Assembly: GCA_041615815.1 (NCBI GenBank)
Contig: JBFJCP010000047.1
Location: 1-22,984 of the forward strand
Source of the DNA: Gemmatimonadales bacterium
GTDB lineage: Bacteria; Gemmatimonadota; Gemmatimonadetes; Gemmatimonadales; GWC2-71-9
Direction of reading: 5' to 3'
DNA length: 22,984 nucleotides
Below are positions 598 through 21,164 of the stretch, one piece after another. The notes below the pieces were generated by a model that did no database searches, was not told the DNA's origin, and was given only the letters and a program-made list of their open reading frames with translations. Each line of letters starts with the position of its first letter. Positions within the stretch are counted from its first letter, which is position 1. The position numbers were made by a program, and so were the translations under genes.

Positions 598-1330
598 CGT
601 TCAGCCGATTGGCGAGAGTTGTTTAGCCAGCTCGGCGGCCGTTTGTATTCGATCGTCGGGGCGTTTGGCGAGGAGCCGCGCGACCAGGGAGGAGAGCGCC
701 GGCGGTACGTCCGGATTGAGTGCCGTCGGCGGCGCGGGCTCGTCGTGCAGGAGTTTGGCGATCAGCGAGACGGCAGACGGTGCCTCGAACGGCAGCTTCC
801 CCGTGAGACACTCGTAGAGCACCACACCGGCGGCGTACAGATCCGTCCGGGCGTCCACCTCCTCGGCGGTCACCTGTTCCGGCGACATGTACGCCGGCGT
901 CCCGACAACGAGCCCGACCTCCGTCAGGGGGCTGGCCCGTTCGGCGAGCCGTGCGACGCCAAAGTCCATGACCTTGAGCACGCCGTCGGCATCCAGGAGC
1001 AGGTTGTGGAGCGAAGTCGCCGGCGGTGGCTTTCAGTTCAGGCTCGAAGGACGTGGTACCCGCAAGCAACACCCCGACGGCGTCGAAGCCGAACGCGTCG
1101 TGCCGGAGCCCCTGGGCAACGCTTTTGCAGATTGCGTTCTCGTCCTGCGCCTCGGCGACGCGCGTGCTCAGGCCGAGCAGCGCGGAGCGGAGGCCGGAGG
1201 GATCGGTGTCGCGTGCTAACGACGGCGCTACCGGGCGCGGTCGCTCGCTCACAAAGCGGTGGGTGTGGTGAGGGTGACCGCGTGTCGTGCGCCGTGCCGC
1301 GACCCATGGGAGTTCTTCGGCATGGCTCAA
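598..1330 (-). pseudogene. chimeric remnant: GAF-like N-terminal fragment (frame of ORF 623..1330) fused out of frame to the C-lobe of a Ser/Thr kinase (frame of ORF 601..981)
   Basis: ORF 601..981(-) encodes kinase subdomains VII-XI only (VLKVMDFGVARL, GTPAYMSPEQ, DLYAAGVVLYECLTGKLPF). In that frame the residues upstream read KPPPATSLHNLLLDADG and are preceded by a TGA. There is no HRD motif, no VAIK motif and no Gly loop. ORF 623..1330(-) in another frame reads like the start of a GAF domain (LRSALLGLSTRVAEAQDENAICKSVAQGLRHDAFGFDAVGVLLAG) and then runs across the kinase region as unrelated sequence. Confidence 0.45.
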
Positions 1331-1606: not shown

Positions 1607-3166
1607 TCAAGACCTCTCGTGTGCAGCCAGGGCAATCGTGGGTCTTCCTCTCCGATAGCGACGGGTGATGCCGGCGGCAATCCGTTCCGCGTTGGCCAGA
1701 ATGGTGAGGCTCGTGTTGACGGCCAGCGAGGTGGGAATGGCGGCGCCATCCGACACGTACATCCCGGGATACCCAAACACCTCTCCCCCGGCGTCGACCA
1801 CACCGCGACTCGGTGTATCCGCCATGCGGCACGACCCTACCTGGTGGGCCGTCGAGAAATGCGGGTCAGAGTATGGGGCACCCTCACGGTTCACGAACTC
1901 GGCGGTGACGAGACGGCAACCATTGCGGGTGAGAATCGAATGGAGTAGCCGCTTCGTTTCCTCATAGTAGTGCCGCAAGCCATCGGTCAGCTCGAGCCGG
2001 AGATCCAGTCGGCGGGAGACCGCCGACATCACGCCAAGTGGCGGCGTCATGCCGAACGCGGCGAGCACGATCATGCGCCGGCGGTATTGCTTCATCAGCT
2101 CCACGTGCGGACCACCCCAATACGCGGGGGTTCGGTCGTCCCCATCCAAACGAAGGCGCGCCGAGGCCACGGCTTGTAGTGGCAAAGGCTTTGCCGCGGT
2201 CACCATGAGGCCATGGGACTCGAGGAACTCGTAGCTCACCATTCCCGGATGCGACCGTCCGGCGAACATGTCTCCGTCTGGAAACGACGACGGCAGGAGG
2301 CCCGCCACCTTGACGCTCCCGTTGAACGCGATGTTGCGCCCCACCTGGTCACTCAGCCGCGAAAGCGCACGCCTCGAATCGAGGAGGAGCCGCGCGGTCC
2401 CGACCGTACCCCCACCAAGGATCAGGAGCTTGGCTCGGTGGCGAACCATCTCGCGACTGCCGTCTCGGCGCCTGCACACGACGTCGTAGCGATAGGGCAG
2501 CCTGTTCACCGGACCGGCTGCGGGGGTATTCCGCACGTCGCCCACGGTGTCGATCGAGATCGCCTCCACGTCCGACTGCACGGTAGCTCCCGCCTTCACG
2601 GCCTGCGGCAGGTAATTGAGCAGAAGCGATTGCTTGGCGCCGTAGATACAGCCCGTGACGCAGAATCCGCTGCCCAGGCATCCGCGTACGGCATAGCGTG
2701 CGCGCTCGCAGCTGTAACCCAGGTTCTTCATCAGAAGCGAGAAGACGAGCCCACTCTTGGGCACGAGCTGCGGATCGATCTGCTCCACGTGGAGCATGCG
2801 ATCCGCCATGTCATAATGGGGATCGAGCGCCCGTCGGTCCACGCTCGACGGCCACAGCCGGCGACCGGCATCGTCCACCTGGTCGAAGGCTTTGGACGGC
2901 GCGCGCAACGAGACCATCTCGTAGAACCCGGACCCGCCACCCAGCGCCTCGGCATACGTCAAGCTCAGGTTCTCTCCGGCTAGACTTCTGAGGTACGTGA
3001 GCAGGTACTTGGGGTCCTGCGTTTGCCTGAAGCTCGTGTAGGGATCGAGGTGCGGGCCTTTCTCGATGATCACGACCCGGAAACCGGTTTGCGCGAGCCG
3101 AAGCGCCGGCGCCGCCGCGCCAAATCCCGATCCCACAACCAACACGTCGCTCGTAACCGTCTGCAT
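1607..3166 (-). CDS. GMC-family FAD-dependent oxidoreductase (choline dehydrogenase / cholesterol oxidase-like)
   Basis: N-terminal Rossmann motif DVLVVGSGFGAAAPALRLAQTGFRVVIIEKG. C-terminal GMC signature region HQVGSCRMADTPSRGVVDAGGEVFGYPGMYVSDGAAIPTSLAVNTSLTILANAERIA. ATG at 3166 preceded by GGGAGGGG; 519 aa. Confidence 0.9.
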   Translation of the reverse strand: MQTVTSDVLVVGSGFGAAAPALRLAQTGFRVVIIEKGPHLDPYTSFRQTQDPKYLLTYLRSLAGENLSLTYAEALGGGSGFYEMVSLRAPSKAFDQVDDAGRRLWPSSVDRRALDPHYDMADRMLHVEQIDPQLVPKSGLVFSLLMKNLGYSCERARYAVRGCLGSGFCVTGCIYGAKQSLLLNYLPQAVKAGATVQSDVEAISIDTVGDVRNTPAAGPVNRLPYRYDVVCRRRDGSREMVRHRAKLLILGGGTVGTARLLLDSRRALSRLSDQVGRNIAFNGSVKVAGLLPSSFPDGDMFAGRSHPGMVSYEFLESHGLMVTAAKPLPLQAVASARLRLDGDDRTPAYWGGPHVELMKQYRRRMIVLAAFGMTPPLGVMSAVSRRLDLRLELTDGLRHYYEETKRLLHSILTRNGCRLVTAEFVNREGAPYSDPHFSTAHQVGSCRMADTPSRGVVDAGGEVFGYPGMYVSDGAAIPTSLAVNTSLTILANAERIAAGITRRYRRGRPTIALAAHERS

Positions 3167-3182
3167 GAGCCCCTCCCTCGAG

Positions 3183-3737
3183 CTAGGCAGGATTGCCGTC
3201 GCCCGAGATGCTATGAGGCAGGAATCGCTCCGGATTGGGGTACGCCATCGCCTTTCGATCTTGAGGGCGATAGCGACCGTCGAAATCGATCAATGGGCAG
3301 CCGCGGTCCGGGTCGTAGATCCCCGCGTAGACCGCGATCTGCGTCAGAAACACGGCGCCCGTGTACACCCGACCAGTCGTGCCGCCCTCAGCGAGGCCCT
3401 CGGCCACTATTTTCGTGCGCTGTTGGATGGACAGCCGCTCGAAATCGAAGCTCGAGTAGTGGCGCATGGTCCGGTTACACAAATCGGACGCGAAGAATCC
3501 CCGGCACTTGGCGAGTGGGTAGTAGCTGTCGTAGAACGGGCGCACGAGATCCGGCTCATCGATGCGGACCCCTGGTACGACGGTCTCCACGAATGCCCGC
3601 AGGATCCGGTCTACCCGCTCGGACTGTTCGTCGAACTCTTCTGGGTAGAGACGCATGGCGATACGCAGCGGTGTGCAGGCGACGCTGCAGCTGGCAGCGA
3701 GGACCGCCAGACCCTTGAGCGCAGCGCGGCGTGACAT
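3183..3737 (-). CDS. Tat-exported small subunit of a flavoprotein dehydrogenase (gluconate 2-dehydrogenase subunit 3 family)
   Basis: Twin-arginine signal MSRRAALKGLAVLAASCSVA; about 185 aa; lies 13 nt upstream of the GMC oxidoreductase start, the usual pairing for this family. Start taken at the internal ATG (3737) that places SRR at the N-terminus; the ORF track's longer start at 3773 is the alternative. Confidence 0.7.
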   Translation of the reverse strand: MSRRAALKGLAVLAASCSVACTPLRIAMRLYPEEFDEQSERVDRILRAFVETVVPGVRIDEPDLVRPFYDSYYPLAKCRGFFASDLCNRTMRHYSSFDFERLSIQQRTKIVAEGLAEGGTTGRVYTGAVFLTQIAVYAGIYDPDRGCPLIDFDGRYRPQDRKAMAYPNPERFLPHSISGDGNPA

Positions 3738-3841
3738 CGTTTGTCGTGTGTCGCTGCGAACCTGGTGGGGCATGGGACCCTCCCGTGACTGCCAGCAGTG
3801 TCACAGGAGAGGCGCAAGAGAACGTCAAGGGTGGGATGATG

Positions 3842-5734
3842 CTAGCTGACGGCGCGGAGGATGCGCTCCTTTTGCCCGGTCGTCAGCATGTCACGGGCAA
3901 TGACGTCACGGACAATTCGTGCCACGAATGCGTAACCACGGGCATCGGCGGAGAGCCAGCGCTGCCATTCCAGTTCGTCGAGCGCGGCGGCAAGCGTGCC
4001 CGGGTCGAGACCGAGAGCAGCGGCGAGCAGCTGTTCCGATACCGGTTCCGGCAGCACGCTGGTGCCCGCGAGTACCTGCTGCGCCGGCTGGCTCAATCGG
4101 CGAAACCCGACCCGGATGGCGGCGATGATGGCGTCGGGAAGGTCGCCGGGCATTGTTTGGGAAAGGGTATGAAAGGGCGCCGGCCAGACGCCGGGCACGT
4201 GCTCGAGCTCGAGGCCCAACGCCACGGCGTGGAGCAACTCGACCGCGAGGAGCGGGATGCCGGCCGAATCGGCGTGCACCCGGCGGGCAACGCGATCGAT
4301 CTGATCTTCGTCACTGGTGGGAAGCGCCCAGGTGGCCAGGCGCCGTAGCGCCGTCTCATCGAGAGGGCCAGGCCGCACCGTCACCCCAGCAACGTCTCGG
4401 CCAATCAAACTGCGCAAATCATCCAGTTCGGTCCGCGATGGGTGCGGTTCGAGCGCAAACCCGACCGCGAGAGGTCGCGTTGCCACATCGCGTGTGAGGG
4501 CGACGAGCCCCAAGAGGGACTCGCGATCAGACCACTGGGCGTCGTCGAGGAGCAGCACGACCGGATGTTCATCGGCGATGACCCCGACAATCCGACTCAG
4601 CGCCGCGTCGAGCGGCATCGGTGTGTTCTTGGGAGCGCCGAACCGATCCGTCCAATCGGGAAGCCGGTGGGTGAAGGCGGCGAGGGCTTCCGGCGGTGCC
4701 GCCGCCACTCCTGGGGCGTTCGCGAGCCCCTCTGCGATGCCGAGGATGGCACTAAAGGGTCTCTGGCGATCTGCTTCGACCCCCCGCACGGTCGCGACGA
4801 TGGCTCCGGCGAGGCGGGCGCGCGCCTCGAACTCTTCGGCCAATCGGGTTTTCCCAATTCCCGCGTCGGCCACGATCAACAAGGTCAGTGCTCGACGATC
4901 GTTCACGCTTTCGTGCCAAGATTCGAGCAATCGTTCGAGCTCTTGTTCACGCCCCACCAGCGGCGCTCGTCGCAGCTGCGCTCCCGACCGCTCGTCCCGC
5001 GGCACCGATGCGGGGAGGTTCCACGTACGTTGGGCTCGCACGCGCGTGGCCAGGGCGGTGGTTTCGTGGTTCGGTTGCAGATCCAGATCGCCCAAACGCT
5101 GGGTGAACTGGTCGAAACACGTCAGCGCCACCGCCCGCTCGCCCAACAAGGCGTGCGCTCGCATCGCGCGTTGCACAGCCCGATTCGACGTCGGGTCGAG
5201 CGCGATCGCTCGGAGCGCCGTTGCGGCAGCCTCGTGCACCTGACCTCGGGCGATCGATAGGTCGCAGGATGCGACAACGGCTCCAACGCTCTTGCTTCGC
5301 CAACGGGTGCGCTCGACGGCAAGCCAGTCTTCGAACGGTGAGGCATCGGGAACCGTGAACCCTTCCATGAACTCCCCATCGACCAGGGCCGCGGCAGCGT
5401 CGAGGTCTCCGCGGGATTCCAGCGCCTCGAACTGGTCCGTGTCGAGCGTCACGGCAGCGGGATCGAGCGCAATGGTTCGGCTGTCGGCGTGCACGCCGGG
5501 ATCGCCGAGGCTGCGACGGAGCACCCGAACCGCTTCGCGCAGCGATTGTCGCGCGGCACTGTCTGGTTTGTCGCCCCACAGCAATGCGGTGAGGTGTTCT
5601 CGGGTGCGCGATCGTTCCGGTGAACGCGCCAAGTAGACCAACAGGGCAAGGTGCTTGCGCCAGAGCAATGCGGGCGGTGGTGGGGCGCCATCGATGGTCA
5701 CCAGCGGTGGGCCAAGCGTTCGACAAAAAATCAC
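3842..5734 (-). CDS. AfsR/SARP-family transcriptional regulator: OmpR-type winged-helix DNA-binding domain, BTAD, and NB-ARC/AAA ATPase
   Basis: N-terminal wHTH (LWRKHLALLVYLARSPERSRTREHLTALLWGD...SLREAVRVLRRSL) and a BTAD region. Walker A LLIVADAGIGKTRL and Walker B VVLLLDDAQWSD. No C-terminal TPR domain. The GTG start overlaps the upstream kinase stop (GTGA). Confidence 0.8.
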   Translation of the reverse strand: MIFCRTLGPPLVTIDGAPPPPALLWRKHLALLVYLARSPERSRTREHLTALLWGDKPDSAARQSLREAVRVLRRSLGDPGVHADSRTIALDPAAVTLDTDQFEALESRGDLDAAAALVDGEFMEGFTVPDASPFEDWLAVERTRWRSKSVGAVVASCDLSIARGQVHEAAATALRAIALDPTSNRAVQRAMRAHALLGERAVALTCFDQFTQRLGDLDLQPNHETTALATRVRAQRTWNLPASVPRDERSGAQLRRAPLVGREQELERLLESWHESVNDRRALTLLIVADAGIGKTRLAEEFEARARLAGAIVATVRGVEADRQRPFSAILGIAEGLANAPGVAAAPPEALAAFTHRLPDWTDRFGAPKNTPMPLDAALSRIVGVIADEHPVVLLLDDAQWSDRESLLGLVALTRDVATRPLAVGFALEPHPSRTELDDLRSLIGRDVAGVTVRPGPLDETALRRLATWALPTSDEDQIDRVARRVHADSAGIPLLAVELLHAVALGLELEHVPGVWPAPFHTLSQTMPGDLPDAIIAAIRVGFRRLSQPAQQVLAGTSVLPEPVSEQLLAAALGLDPGTLAAALDELEWQRWLSADARGYAFVARIVRDVIARDMLTTGQKERILRAVS

Positions 5735-8556
5735 GGAGGACAGGCGTCACGAATGTATTCGCGCGCGCGGCTCGCCAGCGGCCCGTAGTCGGAGTCGGCC
5801 TCTGCCCAGAATTCGAGCACGCGCCGAAAATGTCCGCATGCGCTGTTCCGTTTTTGCCGCACGTCCCGCGAACCACGCTGCCACATGGCATAGGTCCCGA
5901 GAGCCCAGTCGATCTCCGCTGCTTGGGCATGGCCACTCGGCATCCCGATGAAGTCGAAGTGCTCGTACCAACGTTGCGCGGAGTCGGCCGCCACCGACCG
6001 CCCGAGACTGTCGAGCCATTCCGCCCGTTTCATGTGCGCGACGGCGCGTGCGAAGGGATCGCCGGCCTGGCCTGCCGAGTCCAACGCGATGACCGATGCG
6101 CTGCGGTCGAGCGCGGCCTGGAATCGCTTACGCATGCCGTCCCTCACGGCTTCCAACAGGGTCGCGAGCGAGGCGGCCTCGGCATCGCCTGACCGACGGA
6201 TCGTCTCGATCGCTTGCGCCAGCGTGACGGTGTCGCCGCCCTCGGCCGCGTCGAGTCCGAGGGTCCACGCCGCGCGTGTTCCCACAGCCGTATCCGCCAC
6301 TCGACCTTCCAGAGCGCTGCGCGCCTGCGCGCGTTGGGCAGGGGAAACTCCCGGGACCCCCAAAACGGGGAGGATCAAGTACCATTGGGCCGCTTGCAGA
6401 GACGCGTCGTCAGAACCGAGGATCGTGGCGGCCCGGTGCAATCGATCCAAGGCTTCACCCACGCGCCCCAGCGCAACCAGGGCCAGCGCTTGGGCCACGT
6501 AGACGCTGCCGAGCGTCTCGGAATCCTCAGCGGCGAGTGGTTCGAGCATCTGCCCGAGGGCCAGCTGGGTGTGCGGCAACCCGAGCATCGCGGCGAGTCG
6601 AAACGCATTGATCAGCATGCCGGCGAGCTGGGGATCGCCGGCAACCTCCCGCCGGGCACCCTCTGCTCTTTCGGGTTCGAAACGCTCCACGTACGCCAGC
6701 TTTAGGAGCCCGGGCGTAAAGATATCGACCTCCTCTGGCCCGGCCGCCACCTGCTGGAGACGTGCGAGCCAGCGCGCGGATGCATCGCGATTACCCACCC
6801 GCAAATTGGCCCAGATCAAGTGATCGAGCGCAGGTCCGAGCGACGAATCCTTGGTGACGGCAGCCGCAAGCGCACCGATGGCGGTGTCCACAGAAAGACC
6901 GATGAAGGCGCCGCGGTGGAGCAGCTCATCGGCGTACAGGAACGCCGCGTACCCGTGCAGCGGATAGCGTTCGAGGGTCTCCTCGTAGCGTCGGAGGCGT
7001 GCACCCAGCGTCGGCTCGAGCTGTGCATCGATCAGTCGGCGATCGAGGTCCAGGAGGGCAGACCTCTTTGATTCAACCAATTGCCGGAGATCGACCTCCG
7101 GGGAGGGGCTCCCCGTCCTCAACCAACGCCATGCGTTGGACAGCCCCCAGGCAGCCAGGGCAAAACTGGAGTCGATAGCGAACGCATCCCGATAGTGGCG
7201 CACGGCCGTACGCCAGGCGTTGCGATGAAATGCGGCCTCGCCGTCCACGAACGCGGCTAGCGCCGACTCCGGAAGGTCGCTGAGCACACCGCCCACGGGA
7301 TACCGCTCAACGTCATTGGGCGAGATGATGCGGACAGCGTTCAGGCCGATGCGTTCGGCTGTCTCCCCGCGCGTCGTCACCTGAACCGTTCCTGCGGAGT
7401 CGACTCGGCCGTTCCTCCGGACCACCTCGACATCGACGGCCACTGCGGAACCGGACCGCACCAACCGACCCACCACGGCATTTCTGGTGTGCAGCTGGAC
7501 GAGGTCCGCCTTGTCGATTCGTTTCCCGGAACCATCGTTTTCCTGATGCCACTGACGGACCAAATCCGGCGGTGTCACCCCCTCGTTGAAGAACTCGCGC
7601 AGATAGATCTCAGCCAGCATGGAGAGGCTGCGGGCCAACGCCGAATCTTCCGGCGACGACGCCGAGAATGGGAGCACCGCGACATCGGTCGTAGCTCGCG
7701 TGGGCCGGAGCAACAGCGACGCCGCAATGGCGCCGACGGTCAGCCCCGCGATGGTCAGCAGCAGCGTGCGTCTTCGGTATCGTCTCGTGCGAGTCTTCCA
7801 GAGCTTCCGGCGAAACGTCGCGGCATCCGGCCATCGCTGATCGGCTTCGAGCGCCAACGCGCGTTTCAGAATCGGCACGATACTTCGCGGAATACCGGTC
7901 CAGTCCGGTTGATGCCAGCCCGTCCAGCGACGCCCGGTGAACGCCTCGCACAAAACGATCCCCACGGCGTACAGATCGGCACGGGGCGTTATGTCTTCGC
8001 CAGCCACCTGTTCAGGCGCCATGTACCCCAAGGTGCCAGCCCGGTCGGCGCTCGTGGAGGACGCGATTTCGGGCGATGGCCGTGCGAGTCCGAAGTCGGC
8101 GAGGACGGCACGGCCTTGGATGAGGTAGACGTTCCCAGGTTTGATATCGCGATGGATCACGCCGAGCCGGTGGACGGCTTCGAGGGCGTCCAGCAAATCC
8201 CGACCTAGCTTGCGAGCGCTCGCAACGGACAGTTTCCCGCGTTTGAGGCGGTCGGCGAGCGTCGCTCCCTCGTAGTAGTCCATGACGTAGTAGAAGAGGC
8301 CATCCGCCTCACCCGCACGGTGTACGGGCATGACGTTGGGATGATTCAGCGTGGCGAGGATGCGTGCTTCACGGAGGAATCGATGCGCGGCGCGCTCGGT
8401 CGCGAGCTCTGGACGGATGATCTTGACGGCGACGGGCCTGCGAAGGGTGACTTCTCGAGCGAGAAAGACAATGCCCATTCCACCTCCGGCGAGCTCACGC
8501 TCGACCTCGTAGTCGGGCCGGAGGGCGTCACGCAGACGCTCGAGCAGTGTAGGCAT
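5731..8556 (-). CDS. membrane Ser/Thr protein kinase with extracytoplasmic VAVLPF/TPR-like sensor domain (paralogue of 18246..21164)
   Basis: Gly loop LAGGGMGIVFLA, VAVKII, HRDIKPGNVYL, DFGLAR, GTLGYMAPEQ. One TM helix (LLLTIAGLTVGAIAASLLL), then a roughly 600-aa domain that starts TDVAVLPFSASS and is rich in helical-repeat-like sequence. Start set at the internal ATG (MPTLLERLRDAL) 12 aa before the Gly loop, with AAGG upstream; the track's longer start at 8670 is less likely. Confidence 0.85.
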   Translation of the reverse strand: MPTLLERLRDALRPDYEVERELAGGGMGIVFLAREVTLRRPVAVKIIRPELATERAAHRFLREARILATLNHPNVMPVHRAGEADGLFYYVMDYYEGATLADRLKRGKLSVASARKLGRDLLDALEAVHRLGVIHRDIKPGNVYLIQGRAVLADFGLARPSPEIASSTSADRAGTLGYMAPEQVAGEDITPRADLYAVGIVLCEAFTGRRWTGWHQPDWTGIPRSIVPILKRALALEADQRWPDAATFRRKLWKTRTRRYRRRTLLLTIAGLTVGAIAASLLLRPTRATTDVAVLPFSASSPEDSALARSLSMLAEIYLREFFNEGVTPPDLVRQWHQENDGSGKRIDKADLVQLHTRNAVVGRLVRSGSAVAVDVEVVRRNGRVDSAGTVQVTTRGETAERIGLNAVRIISPNDVERYPVGGVLSDLPESALAAFVDGEAAFHRNAWRTAVRHYRDAFAIDSSFALAAWGLSNAWRWLRTGSPSPEVDLRQLVESKRSALLDLDRRLIDAQLEPTLGARLRRYEETLERYPLHGYAAFLYADELLHRGAFIGLSVDTAIGALAAAVTKDSSLGPALDHLIWANLRVGNRDASARWLARLQQVAAGPEEVDIFTPGLLKLAYVERFEPERAEGARREVAGDPQLAGMLINAFRLAAMLGLPHTQLALGQMLEPLAAEDSETLGSVYVAQALALVALGRVGEALDRLHRAATILGSDDASLQAAQWYLILPVLGVPGVSPAQRAQARSALEGRVADTAVGTRAAWTLGLDAAEGGDTVTLAQAIETIRRSGDAEAASLATLLEAVRDGMRKRFQAALDRSASVIALDSAGQAGDPFARAVAHMKRAEWLDSLGRSVAADSAQRWYEHFDFIGMPSGHAQAAEIDWALGTYAMWQRGSRDVRQKRNSACGHFRRVLEFWAEADSDYGPLASRAREYIRDACPP

Positions 8557-8640
8557 ACCGTAGCCTTCAAGGGGCGCTGGGCAATCCCCATGTGATGCAA
8601 GCGTAGGGGTTCTGGAATGGGCGGTCAAGGAGGCGCGCGC

Positions 8641-8750: not shown

Positions 8751-10022
8751 CTACGACTCGTTGTCGGAAGCCCTGGCGCCCAGCCGACTCAGAATGTTCA
8801 CGCCGGTGGCCGTTTCGATTTGCTCCGTGATCTTGATGATGGCTTCAGGAAGCTGTCCCGCCGCCGAAGCGATGCCGGTTCCCCTCCCCCCGGAATCGAT
8901 CACCGTGACCTTGTCGATGTCCATGGCACCCACGGACTTGGTGATCTCCCGGATGATGTCCGGCAGCATGTTGAGGATGAAGATGCGTTCGGCTTCGGTG
9001 CCGGCATTCTGATACAGCTTGATCGTTTCGTCGAGTACAAAGAGACGCGCCCGCCCGTCTTCGGTGATGGTGGCCGCCGATCCCTTGGCGCGCTCTTCCG
9101 CCGCCTCGCGATCCGCCTTGGCGGGCAGGAGCACGTCGGCTTCGAGCCGGCGTTGCTCGAGGGCGATTCGTTCCTGTTGCAGCGCTTGCTCCGCCACCGC
9201 GCGGGCTTTCTCCCCTGACACTTTGGCTTCGGCTTCGCGTGCCAGGGCCTCCGCCTCCAACTCGGCGCGGCGTACCCGCAGCAGATTGTTCTCTTCGGCG
9301 ATCTTGAGGTCGGCCTGAATGGCGGCGATCTGCGCCGCCTGCCGAGCCGAAGCTTCGGTTTGCTCCGCCTCGGACGCACGCTTGGCTTCGGCCACCCGCG
9401 CGACTTTGAGGATCTCCGCGGTTCGCTGCCGTCCAATGGAGTCCAGGTAGTTCACCTCGTCGGTGACGTTCTGGACCTTGAGCGTGTCCAACTCGAGGCC
9501 GAGTTTCTTGAGATCTTCGTCCGCTTCCTCGATGAGGCGGTGGGCGAACTTGAGCCGATCCTCGTTGACTTCCTCCGGTGTGAGAGTGGCGAGCACCCCA
9601 CGGAGGTTTCCTTCCAACGTGTCCTTTGCGATGTGCATGAGATCGTTGAACGGCTTATCGAGGAGCCGCTCGACCGCGTTGTGAGACACGGGATCCCGCG
9701 CACTCACCTTGACGTTGGCAATCCCCTGGACGATCAGCGGAATCCCGCCCTTGGAATACGCGTTCCTGACGATCACGTCGATCGGAATGGTTCGGAGATC
9801 GATCCGCGACACGCGCTCCACGATGGGGATGCGGAGCGTGCGGCCGCCGTGCAGGAGCCGGTAGCCCACTTTGCGGCCGTCACCGGTAACCCGATGACGC
9901 CCGGTGATGACGACGAGCTCGTTGGGAAGGCAAATCACGATGAGCGATTTGACGACGTACACCAGTGCGCCGACGATGCCGAGGGCCACGGCGCCGAGAA
10001 TGAGACCGACGGTGGGATTCAT
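8751..10022 (-). CDS. flotillin / SPFH (band-7) family protein (YqiK/FloA-like)
   Basis: N-terminal TM (LILGAVALGIVGALVYVV), SPFH core (NELVVITGRHRV...IDLRTIPIDVIVRNAYSKGGIPLIVQGIANVKV), a long Ala/Glu-rich coiled-coil flotillin tail. 423 aa. Start overlaps the upstream NfeD-like stop by 4 nt. Confidence 0.85.
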   Translation of the reverse strand: MNPTVGLILGAVALGIVGALVYVVKSLIVICLPNELVVITGRHRVTGDGRKVGYRLLHGGRTLRIPIVERVSRIDLRTIPIDVIVRNAYSKGGIPLIVQGIANVKVSARDPVSHNAVERLLDKPFNDLMHIAKDTLEGNLRGVLATLTPEEVNEDRLKFAHRLIEEADEDLKKLGLELDTLKVQNVTDEVNYLDSIGRQRTAEILKVARVAEAKRASEAEQTEASARQAAQIAAIQADLKIAEENNLLRVRRAELEAEALAREAEAKVSGEKARAVAEQALQQERIALEQRRLEADVLLPAKADREAAEERAKGSAATITEDGRARLFVLDETIKLYQNAGTEAERIFILNMLPDIIREITKSVGAMDIDKVTVIDSGGRGTGIASAAGQLPEAIIKITEQIETATGVNILSRLGARASDNES

Positions 10023-10657
10023 GATTTCCTCTGAAATTCCCCGGGGGGTAACTCACGAGACTCGAAGGGCATGATCTCCGCTTCGGTCTCGTGCATTCGT
10101 AACACCACGACCTCTCGGCCGGGATCCAGGGTCAGGTCGTATCCGGCCGCGAGGCGCGCCGTGACGTGGACTTCGCGTTCGCCAACCGTGCAGGCAATGC
10201 GTCCGCGGACGCCCTGGGACACGGGAATGATCACTCGGGCCAGCGATCCTTCGAGATCCGCGTCACTCACCGCATCGACGGCCGTGTCGGAGCGCTTGAG
10301 CCACAAGAACACGCTGTGGGTCACGACCATGGCGCCCAACCCCATGGCCAGCGAGGGGATGAGTCCGCCGAGCCGGGAAACGGGCGTGAGCAGGGTGAGC
10401 AGCGTTCCAGTGATCCCAAACGTGGCCAGAAAGAAGATCATGTTGCGGGGACGGAGGAGCCCGAGGATGAGATCGCCGGCTCCGACGTGGGCGTCGTGAT
10501 CGGCATCGTGACCATCGTGACCCCCATCGGCGTCGTGGTCGATATCGTGATCGATCTCGCCGCTGTCGACGTCCGAGCCATCATCCCCGCCCGCGAGCAC
10601 CGAGAACATCAGGAGCCCACCACCGAGCACCGCTGCAAAGATGTAGATGCCGAGCAT
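10019..10657 (-). CDS. NfeD-like (YqiJ-type) membrane protein, partner of the flotillin, with His/Asp-rich loop
   Basis: Start set at the internal ATG (MLGIYIFAAVLGG). Three predicted TM helices, then a C-terminal beta-rich NfeD/OB-like domain (SLARVIIPVSQGVRGRIACTVGEREVHVTARLAAGYDLTLDPGREVVVL). Loop GGDDGSDVDSGEIDHDIDHDADGGHDGHDADHDAH lies after the first TM. Position directly upstream of the flotillin is the canonical yqiJ-yqiK arrangement. Confidence 0.7.
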   Translation of the reverse strand: MLGIYIFAAVLGGGLLMFSVLAGGDDGSDVDSGEIDHDIDHDADGGHDGHDADHDAHVGAGDLILGLLRPRNMIFFLATFGITGTLLTLLTPVSRLGGLIPSLAMGLGAMVVTHSVFLWLKRSDTAVDAVSDADLEGSLARVIIPVSQGVRGRIACTVGEREVHVTARLAAGYDLTLDPGREVVVLRMHETEAEIMPFESRELPPGEFQRKS

Positions 10658-10904
10658 ACGCGTTCGGCTTTCGTGATGGTGTTCTACGGTGAATTTGCCG
10701 GTGCGGCACCACCGCGGCAAGAAAGTTCTGAAATGTGAAGGTCTCGATTGTGAGGAAACCCACGGAATAGCGAGTCCACGACTCCCAGAATAGGACGGGG
10801 CCTTTGCCGGAGGTCCGCCGGGACCGATATTTCCGTACGGATACACTTCGGTCGACGCTGGCAACCGACCGCCCATTCCTTGCCACCCATAGGCGACCAA
10901 ACCC

Positions 10905-15817: not shown

Positions 15818-15848
15818 GAGATCGATCGATGGGTGACAAAGGAATGTA

Positions 15849-15917
15849 GGGGATAGGCGGGATAGGCGGGATAGGCAGCAGGGGCGGCAGGGGTGGCAGG
15901 GGTGGCAGGGGAGGCGG
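15849..15917. repeat. G-rich intergenic repeat, copy A: (GGGATAGGC)x3 followed by GGCAGGGGCGGCAGGGGTGGCAGGGGTGGCAGGGGAGGCGG, including a G4N5G4N5G4N5G4 motif at about 15881..15911
   Basis: Read directly. Sits in the 138-bp divergent spacer between the RCC1 kinase (-) and the ECF sigma gene (+). Confidence 0.8.
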
Positions 15918-15955
15918 ATGCAGACGGTAAACGGCGCAGAGGCACGTGGCATCTC

Positions 15956-18088: not shown

Positions 18089-18245
18089 TGCTCTAGGTCT
18101 CCTTGATGGCAGTCAGTGATTGAAGTTAGAAAAGGAGCGGAAGAGACGGAAGAGACAGAGAGCAAAGGCGAGCGAATCCCTCCCTTACGTGAGCCTTACC
18201 ACCCTCACACATACCAATTGACCCCCACTTGACGGCCACTCCTCA

Positions 18246-21164
18246 TTGTTTCTTCAGGGAGGGCGCCGTACGTTGGCCGAAGTCGGTACAGAGCTGGAAC
18301 TCGTGAGCGTCGCTGAAGGTCGCATCACCACGATTGCCGGCCGCTACACCTTGGAGCGCGAGTTGGGTCGAGGCGGCATGGCCGTGGTGTACCTCGCCAC
18401 CGATTCTCGCCATCATCGCAGCGTCGCCATCAAAGTGTTGGACCCGCAGATTGCCGAGTCCACGGGCAAGCAGCGATTCCTGCAAGAGATCCGCATCGTC
18501 GCACAGCTCACCCACCCGAACATTCTCACGCTCATCGATTCGGGCCAGATCAATGGGGCGCTCTACTACGTCATGCCCTACGTGGATGGTGAGTCCCTGC
18601 GCACGCGCCTGAATCGTGAACGGCAGCTTCCGTTGCGGGACGCACTGCAAATCGCGCGTGAGGTGGCGGAGGCGCTCGATTACGCGCATCGACAAGACGT
18701 GATGCATCGGGACATCAAACCCGAGAACATTCTGCTCGAGGATGGTCACGCCGTCGTGGCCGATTTCGGGATTGCGTGTGCGATCAGGGAAGCCCGGGGC
18801 GAGAGCTGTACCATGCCGGGTGTCGTCGTCGGCACACCGTCTTACCTGAGCCCGGAGGTGTGCTCCGGCACTGCAGATCTGGATGCGCGCGTGGACATCT
18901 ACGCGCTCGGCTGCGTGCTGTACGAAATGCTCACCGGGGAGCCGCCGTTCACGGGACCCAACGGGCAGGCAATCATGGCGCGGCACGTGAACGAACCGGT
19001 TCCATCGCCTCGAGTTCTGCGCCCTTCCCTCTCCGAATCCGTGGAAGCGACGGTCAAAACGGCGCTCGCCAAGGCACCTGCCGATCGTTTTAGCTCGGCG
19101 GCGGAATTGGCAGAAACCGTCCGCGTGCTCGAGACGGGAGAGCAGGTCAAGATCTTGCGCGCCGTTCGGCGCCGGACGCGGTTCGCCCTCGCCGTGGCAG
19201 GGGTAGGGGTCGCGGCGTTTCTGGGCTGGCGGGTGTTTTGGCCCACGGTGGAGGCGTTCGATCCTCAACGCGTCGTCGTGTTTCCCACGGTCCAAAGTGG
19301 CGAGCTGGGCGGCAATGCCGATCTTGGCGAGCAGGTAACCATTGCGCTGCTCAACGCGCTCAACAGCACCGAGGTCGTGAAAGCCGTGGATGGGTGGCGG
19401 TTGCTCACCGAGCGACAGCGAGCGGATGTCCGGGGAATCTCGCCCAGGACCAGCCGATCGTTGGCACACCGGGCGGGGGCGGGCGCGTATCTCGAGGGAC
19501 GCATCCTCGCGGCCGACTCGCTCCGCTTGTCGCTACAGCTCATGACCCTCGACGGCGAATCCGGAGTTCAGCGCGTCATCGCGTTTGCGAGAAGCGCAGA
19601 CCCCTGGACGATCGGCGTCCACGCTGCGACCGCCCTGCTCCCCGCACTGATTCCCGCGGGCCGGCGCGGCGATCTCGTAACGCTCAATGCGCGCGACCCC
19701 GCCGCCACGGCCAGCTTCCTCCGAGGTGAACAGGCGTACCGGCGTGCGCAGTTCGAGGACGCGTTGGGACATTACCGCCACGCGGTGGTGGTCGACACGG
19801 CTTTTGCTCTGGCAGCGTTGCGGGGAGCCCAAGCCGCCAGCTGGAACTATCGACTGTTCGAAGCAGGCGAGTTCCTCGCGGCCGCACTGACCCATGCCCA
19901 CGGTCTCAATCCTCAGGACCTGCACTTAGCGCGGGGGTTCTCGGCCTACCTGCGCGCACGGGCTGACTCTGCCGTGCGCCATTTTCGCCTCGCGGTGGTC
20001 ATGGAACCGGAGTGGCCGGAAGCGTGGACGATGCTGGGCGAAGTGTACACGCATCTCCTCCCTCTCGCGGCACCACTCGATTCGCTGGCCGAGGTGGCGT
20101 TCAGGGCGGCACACATTAAAGAACCGGACTTCGGGCCGGCGCTCTACCATCTCCTCGAGATCGCGATTCGCAAGGGCGACCGTCAGGAGGCGCGGCGTCT
20201 CTTGAACCGATTTCAGGCGGGCACTCCGGACTCGCGTCAGCTCCTGACGGTGGATCTCATGTATCGGTGCGTGTTCAACTCGCCATCAATCATCGATTGG
20301 CGGCGGTACGTGCATCGGGGACCGCAGCAGGTGGTCGACGCCGCGCGATCCCTCACGGTGGGGGGCATCCGGCAGCCGGTCTGCGCAGAATCGGCGTGGA
20401 GGGCGGTATTGGCCCACGATTCAGCAAGGGACAATGCGTGGGACAACCGGCGGTGGGGCGCGCTTCGAGGTCTCCATGCCGTGCTCGTGGCGCAAGGAAG
20501 AACGGAGGAGCTCAAGACCACGCTTTCGGCCGATACCGTGTTCGGACGTGGGCTCATCGAACGGCTGCATATTCTCGCGGCCCTGGCGGGCGCGGACGTG
20601 CATCGTGAAGCAGCTGAGGCGGCCGACCATCTCCAGGAGGTGTACCGCGCCGATCCCACCGGGATGCGGAGCCTGCACGTGTGGCACCTCGGGATCTGGA
20701 ACGCGTCGCGGGGAGACGTTGCGACGGCCGAGGGTATCAGCGGCATGCTTGCAACGAGAGCAGCCAGCAGCGGAGATCGCCGCGAGCGCTTGCTGTCTCG
20801 GAGTCTGGCCGCACGGGTTGCGCTCGCCGCCGGGGACTCGAACGTGGCGCTCGGCCGGCTGCAGACCCTCGTCCCCGACACGGGTCGAGCGCCGCTCACC
20901 TGGAACGCGTGGGAATCCCTGGGGGGTGAGCGCATGCTGTTGGCCGAGCTCTTGATGGCGTCCGGCCGGTACGCGGAGGCGTGGCGCGTGGCGTCCAACT
21001 TCGATGCGCCGGCCCCGGTTCCCTACACGATGTACGTGCCCGCAAGCCTGGCGCTCCGCATCCGGATCGCCAGAGCACTCCAACAACAGGAGGTAGCACG
21101 AGGACTCACACGACGTCTCGTCGCGCTCGGGCGCGAGGATCTGATTCCGTTGGACGTGAACTGA
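18246..21164 (+). CDS. membrane Ser/Thr protein kinase with extracytoplasmic VVVFP/TPR-like sensor domain (paralogue of 5731..8556)
   Basis: GRGGMAVVYLA, VAIKVL, HRDIKPENILL, DFGIA, GTPSYLSPE. TM helix FALAVAGVGVAAFLGW. C-terminal domain begins QRVVVFPTVQ and aligns by eye with kinase 1 (FLRGEQAYRRAQFEDALGHYRHAVVVDTAFALAAL versus FVDGEAAFHRNAWRTAVRHYRDAFAIDSSFALAAW). No in-frame ATG lies before the Gly loop. The start is probably the TTG at 18273, 9 nt after GGGAGGG, or the GTG at 18303; 18246 is the maximal ORF. Confidence 0.8.
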   Translation: MFLQGGRRTLAEVGTELELVSVAEGRITTIAGRYTLERELGRGGMAVVYLATDSRHHRSVAIKVLDPQIAESTGKQRFLQEIRIVAQLTHPNILTLIDSGQINGALYYVMPYVDGESLRTRLNRERQLPLRDALQIAREVAEALDYAHRQDVMHRDIKPENILLEDGHAVVADFGIACAIREARGESCTMPGVVVGTPSYLSPEVCSGTADLDARVDIYALGCVLYEMLTGEPPFTGPNGQAIMARHVNEPVPSPRVLRPSLSESVEATVKTALAKAPADRFSSAAELAETVRVLETGEQVKILRAVRRRTRFALAVAGVGVAAFLGWRVFWPTVEAFDPQRVVVFPTVQSGELGGNADLGEQVTIALLNALNSTEVVKAVDGWRLLTERQRADVRGISPRTSRSLAHRAGAGAYLEGRILAADSLRLSLQLMTLDGESGVQRVIAFARSADPWTIGVHAATALLPALIPAGRRGDLVTLNARDPAATASFLRGEQAYRRAQFEDALGHYRHAVVVDTAFALAALRGAQAASWNYRLFEAGEFLAAALTHAHGLNPQDLHLARGFSAYLRARADSAVRHFRLAVVMEPEWPEAWTMLGEVYTHLLPLAAPLDSLAEVAFRAAHIKEPDFGPALYHLLEIAIRKGDRQEARRLLNRFQAGTPDSRQLLTVDLMYRCVFNSPSIIDWRRYVHRGPQQVVDAARSLTVGGIRQPVCAESAWRAVLAHDSARDNAWDNRRWGALRGLHAVLVAQGRTEELKTTLSADTVFGRGLIERLHILAALAGADVHREAAEAADHLQEVYRADPTGMRSLHVWHLGIWNASRGDVATAEGISGMLATRAASSGDRRERLLSRSLAARVALAAGDSNVALGRLQTLVPDTGRAPLTWNAWESLGGERMLLAELLMASGRYAEAWRVASNFDAPAPVPYTMYVPASLALRIRIARALQQQEVARGLTRRLVALGREDLIPLDVN

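What the first reader, a model, noticed from the sequence alone, without database searches (positions are those of the whole stretch)
1607..8556. AfsK/AfsR-like kinase-regulator pair fused into one operon by a GTGA stop/start overlap, upstream of a Tat-exported two-subunit GMC dehydrogenase
The sensor kinase at 5731-8556 ends in TGA, which overlaps the GTG start of a SARP-type regulator (wHTH, BTAD and NB-ARC ATPase, with no TPR tail). This implies translational coupling and a fixed stoichiometry. In Streptomyces the AfsK kinase phosphorylates the SARP-NB-ARC regulator AfsR, but the two genes are not coupled in this way. Here the pair sits immediately upstream of a Tat-signal small-subunit gene and a GMC flavoprotein oxidoreductase, after a 104-bp gap that contains the imperfect palindrome GTGACTGCCAGCAGTGTCAC at 3785-3804. 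This suggests an extracellular-signal to kinase to SARP to periplasmic-dehydrogenase regulatory circuit in a non-actinobacterial background.
Basis: partly seen in the sequence, partly recalled or inferred. Interest (0 to 1): 0.6.

Follow-up and report, generated by a model that had tools for sequence, protein, structure and literature searches.

The report
Conserved kinase–SARP regulator cassette, Gemmatimonadota
A membrane Ser/Thr kinase gene and a SARP-type transcription activator gene overlap by four bases in most Gemmatimonadota relatives examined, and the dehydrogenase operon just downstream carries a promoter built like a SARP binding site, so this is probably a signalling circuit of a kind so far described only in actinobacteria.

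Summary
On the minus strand, a Hanks-type kinase (5731-8556) ends in the TGA of GTGA, whose GTG starts a 630-aa SARP-like regulator (3842-5734). The regulator has wHTH, BTAD and an AAA_16-type STAND ATPase, with no NB-ARC Pfam hit and no TPR tail. Downstream lie a Tat small subunit (3183-3773) and a GMC flavoprotein (1607-3166).

In 80 Gemmatimonadota genomes, the kinase sits upstream of the SARP in 64 of 74 evaluable loci, and 50 of those 64 share the same NTGA overlap.

The dehydrogenase pair is adjacent in only 6 of 80 SARP loci. Seen from the GMC side, about 39% of dereplicated lineages carry the pair next door, in several different arrangements.

The conserved element in the 68-nt spacer is a tandem repeat, CTTGAC-N5-CTTGCG, with an 11-bp period, placed 9 nt before a -10-like hexamer. 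That is SARP-box geometry. This promoter class is enriched about 15-fold directly after SARP genes (p=8e-11).

Best reading: periplasmic signal, then kinase, then SARP, then box promoters that include this dehydrogenase. Phosphorylation and DNA binding are inferred, not shown. A PhoB-type binder of the box remains a rival. It is a new variant of a known kind.

The parts
8600..8628 (-). Canonical sigma-70-like promoter for the kinase-SARP operon: TTGACC (8628-8623), 17-nt spacer, TACGCT (8605-8600). It lies about 44 nt upstream of ATG 8556.
   Evidence: Read from the sequence. The geometry equals the 'solo TTGAC' class, in which A...T peaks at offset 24 (30 of 93). No tandem box occurs here (best partial hit E=1.2).
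5731..8556 (-). Hanks-type Ser/Thr kinase gene, 941 aa. It has a cytoplasmic catalytic domain (about 7807-8511), one TM helix (about 7588-7653), and then a small alpha/beta domain plus a roughly 500-aa TPR-like solenoid (5734 to about 7569), predicted to be periplasmic.
   Evidence: Pkinase at 134.8 bits. VAVK, HRDIKPGN, DFG and APE motifs read. RRYRRR precedes the hydrophobic stretch TLLLTIAGLTVGAIAASLLL. AF2 model of aa 300-941 has pLDDT 89.9 and pTM 0.89, with only generic TPR matches. Invariant Cys608 and Cys640 lie in the C-terminal region.
5731..5734 (-). GTGA stop/start overlap: TGA ends the kinase and GTG starts the SARP.
   Evidence: The same ATGA/GTGA/TTGA overlap occurs in 50 of 64 genome loci that have the kinase upstream.
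3842..5734 (-). Medium-size SARP-type regulator gene, 630 aa. It has a wHTH (Trans_reg_C aa 25-79, 5498-5662), a BTAD (aa 107-233, 5036-5416), and a STAND NOD with Walker A GIGKT and Walker B LLLDD (aa 258-630, 3845-4963). There is no TPR or other sensor tail.
   Evidence: Pfam. 24-sequence alignment A1. Profile hits to EmbR 2fez (E=1.5e-10) and AfsR 8k60 (E=9e-10). AF2 pLDDT 81.8. Foldseek matches to the AfsR SARP domain (TM 0.69-0.71), EmbR, NLRs, Apaf-1 and MalT.
3813..3829 (-). Tandem direct repeat CTTGAC-GTTCT-CTTGCG with an 11-bp period. This is the candidate SARP box.
   Evidence: Exact match. Chance in a shuffled spacer is 3e-4. Sequence-only model R1, built from 66 sites in other contigs, hits 3795-3831 at E=0.0026. 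That is one of only two significant hits in the window. The element is conserved upstream of the small-subunit gene in relatives.
3797..3802 (-). -10-like hexamer GACACT, 9 nt after the second repeat hexamer (8 nt if the repeats are counted as heptamers).
   Evidence: In 91 unique box instances, A at +28 occurs in 77/91 and T at +32 in 73/91.
3183..3773 (-). Small-subunit gene, 196 aa. It has a twin-arginine signal (SRRAAL) followed by a lipobox-like Cys (..VAC|TPL). SD GGGAGGG lies at 3778-3784.
   Evidence: Alignment A2 shows invariant R15, R16 and C33-T-P-L. Pfam gives only weak TAT_signal, plus Gluconate_2-dh3 in one member at E=0.11.
1607..3166 (-). GMC-family FAD oxidoreductase gene, 519 aa. 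It has no signal peptide of its own and carries a conserved C-x5-C-x3-C motif (C163, C169, C173).
   Evidence: GMC_oxred_N and GMC_oxred_C. Invariant cysteines in A3. Nearest solved relatives are cholesterol oxidase, Burkholderia FAD-glucose dehydrogenase 6a2u_B and fructose dehydrogenase large subunit.
18217..18249 (+). Second box-type promoter in the window: ATTGAC-N5-CTTGAC-N9-CATTGT. It lies upstream of a TPR-containing Ser/Thr kinase gene (probable TTG start 18273, end 21164) and is a candidate member of the same regulon.
   Evidence: one mismatch. Model R1 E=0.00099. Sequence. Pfam on the ORF.

Best explanation
This is a conserved Gemmatimonadota signalling cassette.

A single-pass membrane Hanks-type Ser/Thr kinase has a large periplasmic TPR-like domain that serves as the sensor. 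Its gene is transcribed from a canonical promoter. Through an NTGA stop/start overlap it is translationally coupled to a cytoplasmic 'medium' SARP made of wHTH, BTAD and a STAND ATPase with no sensor tail.

Proposed mechanism, all inferred. The kinase supplies the input that the regulator's missing sensor domain would otherwise provide. It does so by phosphorylating or docking the SARP, which changes the SARP's ATP-dependent state. Two SARP protomers then bind head-to-tail to tandem CTTGAC-type repeats with an 11-bp period. The repeats replace the -35 element and end 8-9 bp from a minimal -10, where the SARP recruits RNA polymerase.

In this window the box promoter drives a separate transcription unit. 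That unit encodes a Tat-exported, probably lipid-anchored small subunit that carries a GMC flavoprotein dehydrogenase to the periplasm. A second box sits before another kinase gene.

Shown here: gene architecture, conservation of the pair and of the overlap, the fold assignments, the existence, geometry and distribution of the box, and its enrichment after SARP genes.

Inferred: the kinase-to-SARP signal, SARP-box binding, activation, and the dehydrogenase's substrate.
For: 1. The pair is conserved. The kinase, with a homologous C-terminal domain, lies directly upstream of the SARP in 64/74 evaluable species-level genomes, and 50 of those share the NTGA overlap. Other neighbours are variable housekeeping genes.
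2. The regulator is a SARP by Pfam, by PDB profile and by fold. Its recognition-helix region ARHSL(R/N)EA is nearly invariant.
3. CTTGA-N6-CTTG occurs 101 times at period 11, against 1-46 times at other periods. A and T of a -10 sit at fixed offsets.
4. Lone TTGAC elements instead show canonical 17/18-nt spacing, so the tandem class is a distinct, activator-type promoter.
5. The geometry equals the published SARP rule: 11/22-bp repeats, with the 3' repeat 8 bp from the -10 (PMC10936776).
6. 18/37 intergenic regions following a SARP gene carry the box, against 21/353 other promoter-capable regions (OR 15, p=8e-11). In about 12 lineages the SARP stop codon TGA is part of the first repeat, before different downstream genes.
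7. The box precedes the small-subunit gene in 20/22 loci with an adjacent SARP or kinase and in 24/38 loci without.
8. SARPs with an altered helix (NTALS) have altered boxes downstream (CTTCAG/CTTAAG).
9. The GMC pair recurs next to the cassette in dispersed lineages and in several gene orders.
10. In the window, only the small-subunit promoter and one other site match model R1. The kinase operon has a canonical promoter.
Against: - No experiment of any kind supports this. Phosphotransfer and DNA binding are inferred from adjacency and analogy.
- In the best-studied cases, the effect of phosphorylation on SARPs is weak or disputed: AfsR (PMC10936776) and EmbR in vivo (PMC9239209).
- Only 6/80 SARP loci have the dehydrogenase pair next door.
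- A large SARP clade (helix REAIRVLR) has no box downstream.
- Ten loci have a SARP without this kinase upstream.
- Boxes occur before about 6% of other promoter-capable regions. That implies hundreds of sites per genome, which is many for one regulator.
- Tandem 11-bp repeats in place of a -35 are also what PhoB/OmpR-family regulators bind (PMC4415409). Several box-driven genes are phosphoesterases.
- The enrichment statistics use crude in-house gene calls and loci that are not phylogenetically independent.
Confidence: 0.55

Rival explanations
1. The tandem CTTGAC boxes are bound by a different winged-helix activator, most plausibly a PhoB/OmpR-family response regulator, making them a PHO-box-like element. 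Under this reading the kinase-SARP cassette controls something else, or competes at the same sites.
For: - PHO boxes are two 11-nt direct repeats that replace the -35, and AfsR and PhoP bind overlapping sites in Streptomyces (PMC4415409).
- Box-driven genes include Exo_endo_phos (9/57), Phosphodiest, PAP2 and DUF4956, which would fit phosphate scavenging.
- About 6% of unrelated intergenic regions carry the box, which suggests a large regulon.
- In a box-less GMC clade an OmpR-type regulator gene lies next to the operon, so such regulators do control this operon type somewhere.
Against: - This does not explain the 15-fold enrichment immediately after SARP genes or the overlap with the SARP stop codon.
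- It does not explain the helix/box co-variation.
- No pstS or phoU gene was found in 1.75 Mb of loci, so no PHO-regulon hallmark could be tied to the box.
Confidence: 0.2
2. The two genes are co-expressed, but the kinase is not the SARP's input. The STAND ATPase would respond to a cytoplasmic nucleotide or ligand on its own, and the kinase would act on other substrates. The overlap would then only ensure co-expression.
For: - Four-base overlaps are the commonest gene overlap in bacteria (established knowledge).
- ATP binding, not phosphorylation, activates AfsR in vitro (PMC10936776).
- EmbR phosphorylation was not detected in vivo (PMC9239209).
- Ten loci keep the SARP without this kinase, and one clade has a membrane-protein gene inserted between the two genes.
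Against: - The pairing and the overlap persist across roughly 50% sequence divergence while all other neighbours change.
- A paralogous SARP family is also always next to a kinase, though divergently oriented.
- The SARP lacks any sensor domain of its own.
- Kinase and AAA_16 modules are fused in other proteins, for example the partial hits of both proteins to TIGR03903.
Confidence: 0.15
3. Adjacency of the cassette to the dehydrogenase operon in this window is a lineage accident with no regulatory meaning.
For: Only 6/80 SARP loci have the pair next door. The operon has its own promoter. Many GMC lineages lack an adjacent SARP.
Against: The adjacent cases are scattered over both the SARP and the GMC trees and occur in four different gene orders. 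39% of dereplicated GMC lineages show adjacency. The same box precedes the operon whether or not the SARP is adjacent.
Confidence: 0.08

Closest known systems
AfsK / AfsR of Streptomyces coelicolor
   Same: A Hanks kinase plus a SARP that carries a STAND ATPase. The SARP domain fold matches AfsR (8k60, TM 0.69-0.71). The AfsR target promoter has 11-bp direct repeats overlapping the -35 and a weak -10 (PMC10936776), like the box here.
   Different: AfsR has a TPR tail and this protein has none. afsK lies two genes away from afsR and is not translationally coupled to it. The kinase here is a single-pass membrane protein with a periplasmic TPR-like domain, and it scores 65 bits against the 1300 cut-off of the AfsK model. 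The phylum is Gemmatimonadota, not Actinomycetota.
EmbR / PknH of Mycobacterium tuberculosis
   Same: A SARP and a transmembrane Ser/Thr kinase with an extracytoplasmic sensor are encoded in one operon (PMC9239209). EmbR is the best PDB sequence match to the wHTH-BTAD part (2fez, E=1.5e-10).
   Different: The gene order is reversed, with embR first. EmbR recruits the kinase through a C-terminal FHA domain and has no STAND ATPase. No FHA domain was found here.
'Medium' SARPs (CdaR, CpkO, FdmR1)
   Same: About 600 aa, consisting of a SARP domain plus a nucleotide-binding domain and no TPR (PMC10972967).
   Different: Those are cluster-situated regulators of antibiotic gene clusters in actinobacteria and are annotated with NB-ARC. 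Here Pfam gives AAA_16, the gene is coupled to a kinase, and the neighbours are not biosynthetic clusters.
PhoB/PhoP PHO-box promoters
   Same: Two 11-nt direct repeats (7 conserved plus 4 variable positions) replace the -35 and are bound head-to-tail by a winged-helix activator (PMC4415409).
   Different: The repeat sequence is CTTGAC. The enrichment is next to SARP genes, not next to response-regulator genes. No link to pst genes could be examined.
FAD-dependent dehydrogenase complexes with a Tat 'hitch-hiker' small subunit (Burkholderia FAD-GDH gamma-alpha, fructose and gluconate 2-dehydrogenases)
   Same: A GMC catalytic subunit without its own signal peptide, encoded after a small Tat-signal subunit. 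PDB relatives include 6a2u_B and 7w2j_A. The C-x5-C-x3-C motif has the same spacing I recall for the 3Fe-4S site of FAD-GDH (from memory, not tested).
   Different: No cytochrome c subunit gene is adjacent. The small subunit does not reach the Gluconate_2-dh3 threshold and has a lipobox-like Cys. The best overall matches are cholesterol oxidases, over the C-terminal part only.

Membership tests
SARP family (Streptomyces antibiotic regulatory proteins) | N-terminal OmpR-type winged-helix DNA-binding domain | tested here: met
   Trans_reg_C 29.5 bits against cut-off 26.2. Aligned to EmbR and AfsR from residue 6. Fold match to the AfsR SARP domain.
SARP family (Streptomyces antibiotic regulatory proteins) | Bacterial transcriptional activation domain (BTAD) following the wHTH | tested here: met
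   BTAD 55.4 bits against cut-off 22.1, aa 107-233.
SARP family (Streptomyces antibiotic regulatory proteins) | Binds direct repeats with an 11/22-bp period, the 3' repeat 8 bp from the -10 | tested here: inconclusive
   Sites with exactly this geometry exist and are enriched after SARP genes. Binding itself cannot be tested with these tools.
SARP family (Streptomyces antibiotic regulatory proteins) | Restricted to actinobacteria, as stated in reviews | tested here: not met
   All named relatives are Gemmatimonadota. The review statement is in PMC10972967.
Medium SARP (SARP + NB-ARC, about 600 aa) | NB-ARC-type nucleotide-binding domain after the SARP domain, with no TPR | tested here: inconclusive
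   No NB-ARC Pfam hit at E<=0.01. AAA_16 scores 72.2 bits. Walker A and B motifs are present. The fold matches NLR, Apaf-1 and MalT NODs. Length is 630 aa with no TPR hit.
AfsR orthologue | C-terminal TPR sensor domain, about 990 aa | tested here: not met
   630 aa. The model ends in a helical/winged-helix region. The AfsR alignment stops at residue 309.
AfsK orthologue | Full-length match to the AfsK equivalog model | tested here: not met
   NF053615 scores 65.3 bits against cut-off 1300, over the catalytic domain only.
Hanks-type (eukaryote-like) Ser/Thr kinase | Pkinase domain with catalytic Lys, HRD, DFG and APE motifs | tested here: met
   Pkinase 134.8 bits. VAVK, HRDIKPGN, ADFG and MAPE read in the translation.
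EmbR/PknH-type pair | FHA domain on the SARP that docks the kinase | tested here: not met
   No FHA hit in Pfam. The EmbR alignment covers only residues 6-244.
EmbR/PknH-type pair | SARP and membrane kinase encoded in one operon | tested here: met
   4-nt overlap, conserved. The gene order is opposite to embR-pknH.
STAND NTPase | NOD (NBD-HD-WHD) plus a C-terminal sensor domain | tested here: inconclusive
   The NOD is supported. No sensor domain is present.
Tat-exported two-subunit GMC dehydrogenase (gluconate 2-DH / FAD-GDH type) | GMC catalytic subunit | tested here: met
   GMC_oxred_N 53.6 bits and GMC_oxred_C 61.3 bits.
Tat-exported two-subunit GMC dehydrogenase (gluconate 2-DH / FAD-GDH type) | Small subunit of the Gluconate_2-dh3 family with a twin-arginine signal | tested here: inconclusive
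   The RR motif is invariant. TAT_signal scores only E=0.03-0.11, and Gluconate_2-dh3 hits only one of six members at E=0.11.
Tat-exported two-subunit GMC dehydrogenase (gluconate 2-DH / FAD-GDH type) | Cytochrome c third subunit | tested here: not met
   No such gene follows the GMC gene in the window or in related loci.
PHO box | Two 11-nt direct repeats in place of the -35 | tested here: met
   Definition from PMC4415409.
PHO box | Found before pst/pho genes and bound by PhoB | not testable with these tools

The most novel reading that the evidence does not exclude
Gemmatimonadota use a phylum-wide 'eukaryote-like two-component system'. A periplasm-sensing Ser/Thr kinase is obligatorily coupled to a sensor-less SARP-STAND activator. 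Together they govern a large regulon of exported or envelope enzymes, including phosphoesterases, DedA proteins, lipid-modifying enzymes and this Tat-dependent dehydrogenase. Control runs through a dedicated promoter class of tandem CTTGAC boxes. That would take SARPs out of actinobacterial antibiotic regulation and into general envelope or nutrient sensing.
Probability: 0.35. Interest if true: 0.75.

Novelty: new variant of a known kind. Interest (0 to 1): 0.55.

Why it matters
- SARPs are treated in the literature as actinobacterial regulators of antibiotic clusters. How Ser/Thr kinases feed into them is still unsettled, even for AfsR and EmbR.
- A family in which the kinase gene is welded to a sensor-less SARP across a whole phylum is a cleaner system for studying kinase-to-STAND-to-promoter signalling. 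It comes with a recognisable target promoter class.
- It also gives a first handle on promoter architecture and regulons in Gemmatimonadota, which are abundant soil bacteria and almost uncharacterised genetically.
- For this window, it predicts that the periplasmic dehydrogenase is an inducible, signal-controlled function.

Tried and rejected
- The palindrome at 3785-3804 as operator. Rejected: it has 5-bp arms only, 38-61% of shuffles match it, and it is not conserved.
- NB-ARC membership. No Pfam hit.
- A terminator or sigma-70 consensus between the genes. The simple scan found nothing meaningful.
- The idea that the tandem TTGAC motif is merely the general housekeeping promoter. Rejected: lone TTGAC elements have canonical 17/18-nt spacing, whereas tandem ones have 9/20 nt, and only about 6% of other intergenic regions carry it.
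- Autoregulation of the kinase operon by the box. No significant site upstream of the kinase gene.
- Absence of a Shine-Dalgarno before the SARP start as a family-wide sign of strict coupling. Not supported: 35% have an SD-like string against 16% of random 17-mers. The window itself has none.
- The kinase's TPR as the SARP's 'missing tail'. Rejected on topology, because it lies beyond the TM helix.
- A specific fold relative for the kinase ectodomain. Only generic TPR proteins matched.
- Aligning the GMC Cys motif to solved FAD-GDH by sequence fragment. No hit.
- pstS/phoU in the fetched loci, to test the PHO-box rival. None found.
- Rfam and tRNA scans of the window. Empty.
- My first two GC3-based gene callers missed the kinase and SARP genes and had to be relaxed. 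Single-linkage clustering lumped kinases and SARPs together, so labels were taken from BLAST instead.
Full report
**What is in the sequence**

The window is GC-rich (about 65%). Coordinates 1607-8556 hold four co-directional minus-strand genes:
- a kinase at 5731-8556. The ORF can be extended to 8670, but homologues and independent gene calls start at ATG 8556;
- a 630-aa regulator at 3842-5734;
- a 196-aa protein at 3183-3773;
- a 519-aa GMC oxidoreductase at 1607-3166.

The kinase stop and the regulator start overlap as GTGA at 5731-5734. The regulator's start is secure, because all relatives begin MI.CR.LGP.

Pfam gives Pkinase for the first protein and GMC_oxred_N/C for the last. For the regulator it gives Trans_reg_C, BTAD and AAA_16, all above their curated cut-offs. 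NB-ARC is not hit. The small protein has no Pfam family but does have an invariant twin-arginine motif. The same contig and gene calls occur in public assemblies, and all named relatives are Gemmatimonadota.

**The regulator**

A 24-sequence profile finds EmbR (2fez, residues 6-244, E=1.5e-10) and AfsR (8k60, residues 6-309, E=9e-10) among solved structures. The AlphaFold model (pLDDT 81.8) matches the AfsR SARP domain (TM 0.69-0.71) and EmbR over the first 250 residues. Over the rest it matches plant NLRs, Apaf-1, MalT and Cdc6/Orc1. Walker A (GIGKT) and Walker B (LLLDD) are conserved. There is no TPR or other sensor tail. In the terms of a recent review this is a 'medium' SARP, a class the review says is exclusive to actinobacteria (PMC10972967).

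**The kinase**

The catalytic motifs are intact. A basic stretch (RRYRRR) precedes one hydrophobic helix. The remaining 620 residues fold confidently (pLDDT 89.9, pTM 0.89) into a small alpha/beta domain and a long TPR-like solenoid. That solenoid matches only generic TPR proteins. By the positive-inside rule this domain is periplasmic. Two invariant cysteines near the C-terminus are consistent with that location. The protein is not an AfsK orthologue (65 bits against a cut-off of 1300).

**Is the pairing conserved?**

A scan of one genome per species found 461 relatives of the SARP, and 80 loci were kept.
- tBLASTn shows a kinase with a homologous C-terminal domain directly upstream in 64 of 74 evaluable loci.
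- In 50 of those 64, the kinase stop and the SARP start overlap as ATGA, GTGA or TTGA.
- One clade has a gene for a roughly 260-aa membrane protein inserted between the two genes.
- Ten loci lack this kinase altogether.

All other neighbours vary. They include purH, purN, TonB-dependent receptors, citrate synthase, an HD-GYP regulator and GlnRS. A paralogous SARP family, about 45% identical, sits divergently next to another kinase.

A Shine-Dalgarno sequence is absent before the SARP start in this window. That is not a family-wide rule, though.

**Is the dehydrogenase linked?**

From the SARP side, the small-subunit/GMC pair is adjacent in only 6 of 80 loci. Those six are scattered over the SARP tree.

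From the GMC side, a metagenome scan gave 80 loci with orthologues at 54-71% identity. The arrangements found were:
- about 20 loci with the SARP immediately upstream and co-directional;
- one with a divergent SARP;
- two with a divergent kinase-SARP pair;
- one with a convergent SARP;
- two with the order small subunit, GMC, kinase.

After dereplication at 85% identity, 15 of 38 evaluable lineages show adjacency. These are interleaved with non-adjacent lineages on the GMC tree. This pattern indicates a recurrent functional association. It does not indicate a fixed operon.

**The spacer**

With ATG 3773 as the start, the spacer is 68 nt. That start has GGGAGGG four bases upstream.

It is matched by 38-61% of shuffled spacers and is not conserved.

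Aligning the spacers of relatives revealed a different element: CTTGAC-N5-CTTGCG at 3829-3813, followed 9 nt later by GACACT at 3802-3797. Evidence that it is real and specific:
- Across 1.76 Mb of loci, CTTGA-N6-CTTG occurs 101 times at period 11, against 1-46 times at other periods.
- In 91 unique instances, A is at +28 in 77 and T at +32 in 73. That is an nAnnnT -10 at a fixed distance.
- Lone TTGAC elements in the same genomes show the canonical 17/18-nt spacing to nAnnnT. The tandem class (9 nt from the proximal repeat, 20 nt from the distal one) is therefore a separate promoter type in which neither repeat can serve as a normal -35.
- The geometry is exactly that published for SARP targets: direct repeats 11 or 22 bp apart, with the 3' repeat 8 bp from the -10 and a weak -10 (PMC10936776).
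- A sequence-only model built from 66 sites in other contigs gives just two significant hits in the window. One is 3795-3831 (E=0.0026). The other is 18218-18249 (E=0.001), before another kinase gene.

The kinase operon itself has a canonical TTGACC-N17-TACGCT promoter at 8628-8600 (read) and no box.

**Who binds the box?**

Three observations point to the SARP:
- In the 80 SARP loci, 27 of 89 box sites lie right after a SARP gene. In about a dozen lineages the SARP stop codon TGA is part of the first repeat, before unrelated downstream genes.
- Among promoter-capable intergenic regions, 18/37 that follow a SARP gene have the box, against 21/353 others (odds ratio 15, p=8e-11).
- SARPs whose recognition-helix region reads NTALS instead of (R/N/S)EA(L/V/I)R have CTTCAG/CTTAAG-type boxes downstream.

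The box also precedes the small-subunit gene in 24/38 loci where no SARP is adjacent, which suggests action in trans.

Against this, PhoB/OmpR regulators bind the same kind of element, and AfsR and PhoP share sites in Streptomyces (PMC4415409). Box-driven genes in the flanks include Exo_endo_phos (9/57), VTT/DedA, alpha/beta hydrolases, Phosphodiest, PAP2, a desaturase and MMPL. That mix would fit a phosphate or envelope regulon. I therefore keep a PhoB-type binder as the main rival.

**The downstream enzyme**

The small subunit has invariant RR followed by a conserved Cys-Thr-Pro-Leu after the hydrophobic stretch. This looks like a Tat lipoprotein signal. It does not reach the Gluconate_2-dh3 threshold.

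The GMC protein has no signal peptide and carries an invariant C-x5-C-x3-C motif. Its solved relatives include cholesterol oxidases, Burkholderia FAD-glucose dehydrogenase and fructose dehydrogenase large subunits. No cytochrome c subunit gene is present. The substrate is unknown.

**Comparison with known systems**

The system works like AfsK/AfsR and PknH/EmbR, each a Ser/Thr kinase plus a SARP. It is an orthologue of neither:
- It has no TPR tail, unlike AfsR, and no FHA domain, unlike EmbR.
- The kinase ectodomain is different.
- afsK is two genes away from afsR.
- embR precedes pknH in one operon.

The new features are a phylum-wide, translationally coupled kinase-first cassette outside actinobacteria, a sensor-less SARP-STAND regulator, and an associated promoter class.

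**Verdict**

Every mechanistic step (phosphotransfer, DNA binding, activation) remains inference. I rate it a new variant of a known kind and of moderate interest.

Noticed in passing
window 18217-18249 (+) and gene about 18273-21164 (+): A second tandem-box promoter (ATTGAC-N5-CTTGAC-N9-CATTGT; model R1 E=0.001) precedes a 960-aa Ser/Thr kinase with TPR repeats. The probable start is TTG 18273, after GGGAGGG. This suggests kinase genes may themselves belong to the box regulon.
   Followed up: partly
loci L003-L082 in general: These Gemmatimonadota show two promoter classes. One is canonical: TTGAC-N17/18-nAnnnT. The other is a tandem CTTGAC class with 9/20-nt spacing. I found no published description of either.
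   Followed up: partly
L028, L070, L075, L076, L080, L114 (second SARP copies): A paralogous SARP family, about 45% identical, is divergently paired with another kinase. Its stop codon TGA is embedded in the first repeat of a CTTGA(A/T/G) box that drives the next gene (DedA/VTT or a phosphodiesterase).
   Followed up: partly
L011, L022, L027, L031, L036, L037, L044, L059: One clade has a gene for a roughly 260-aa polytopic membrane protein with no known family. It is inserted between the kinase and the SARP and breaks the overlap.
   Followed up: no
L141:7-672, L143:3072-4666, L160:5133-5810: In the most divergent small-subunit/GMC clade, which lacks both the box and an adjacent SARP, an OmpR/PhoB-family response-regulator gene lies next to the operon. 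This may be a replacement of the regulator.
   Followed up: no
window 3183-3773 (-), residues 30-36: The Tat small subunit has an invariant Cys-Thr-Pro-Leu right after the signal's hydrophobic stretch. This is lipobox-like, so the dehydrogenase may be tethered to a membrane by a lipid anchor rather than by a cytochrome subunit.
   Followed up: partly
window 1607-3166 (-), residues 163-173: The GMC protein has an invariant C-x5-C-x3-C motif. The spacing is the same as I recall for the 3Fe-4S site of Burkholderia FAD-glucose dehydrogenase. A fragment search against PDB sequences gave no confirming alignment.
   Followed up: partly
window 5734-5830 (-), kinase C-terminus: The kinase ends with a conserved Cys three residues before the stop (C-x-x-stop). 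A second invariant Cys lies 32 residues upstream. This may be a periplasmic disulfide.
   Followed up: no
protein P0139: A 970-aa protein combines Trans_reg_C, BTAD and TPR_19 and is weakly similar to the kinase's C-terminal region. It looks like a one-component version, with the SARP DNA-binding part fused to the same kind of sensor.
   Followed up: no
window 601-981 (-): A 126-aa ORF encodes only the C-lobe of a protein kinase (..DFGVARL..TPAYMSPEQ..). It is a kinase fragment or pseudogene just beyond the GMC gene.
   Followed up: no
window 12992-16171 (-): A 1059-aa Ser/Thr kinase is fused to a Big_2 domain and an RCC1-repeat beta-propeller. With this one, the 23-kb window holds three full-length kinases.
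   Followed up: no
window 8751-10966 (-): An NfeD-like membrane protein gene and an SPFH/Band_7 gene overlap by 4 bases immediately upstream of the kinase operon. They are not conserved next to the cassette in other genomes.
   Followed up: partly
L050:4361-4420 and L087:3350-3420: The SARP-to-small-subunit spacer of two near-identical contigs contains a CTCCTCTTT-type short tandem repeat that differs in copy number between them.
   Followed up: no
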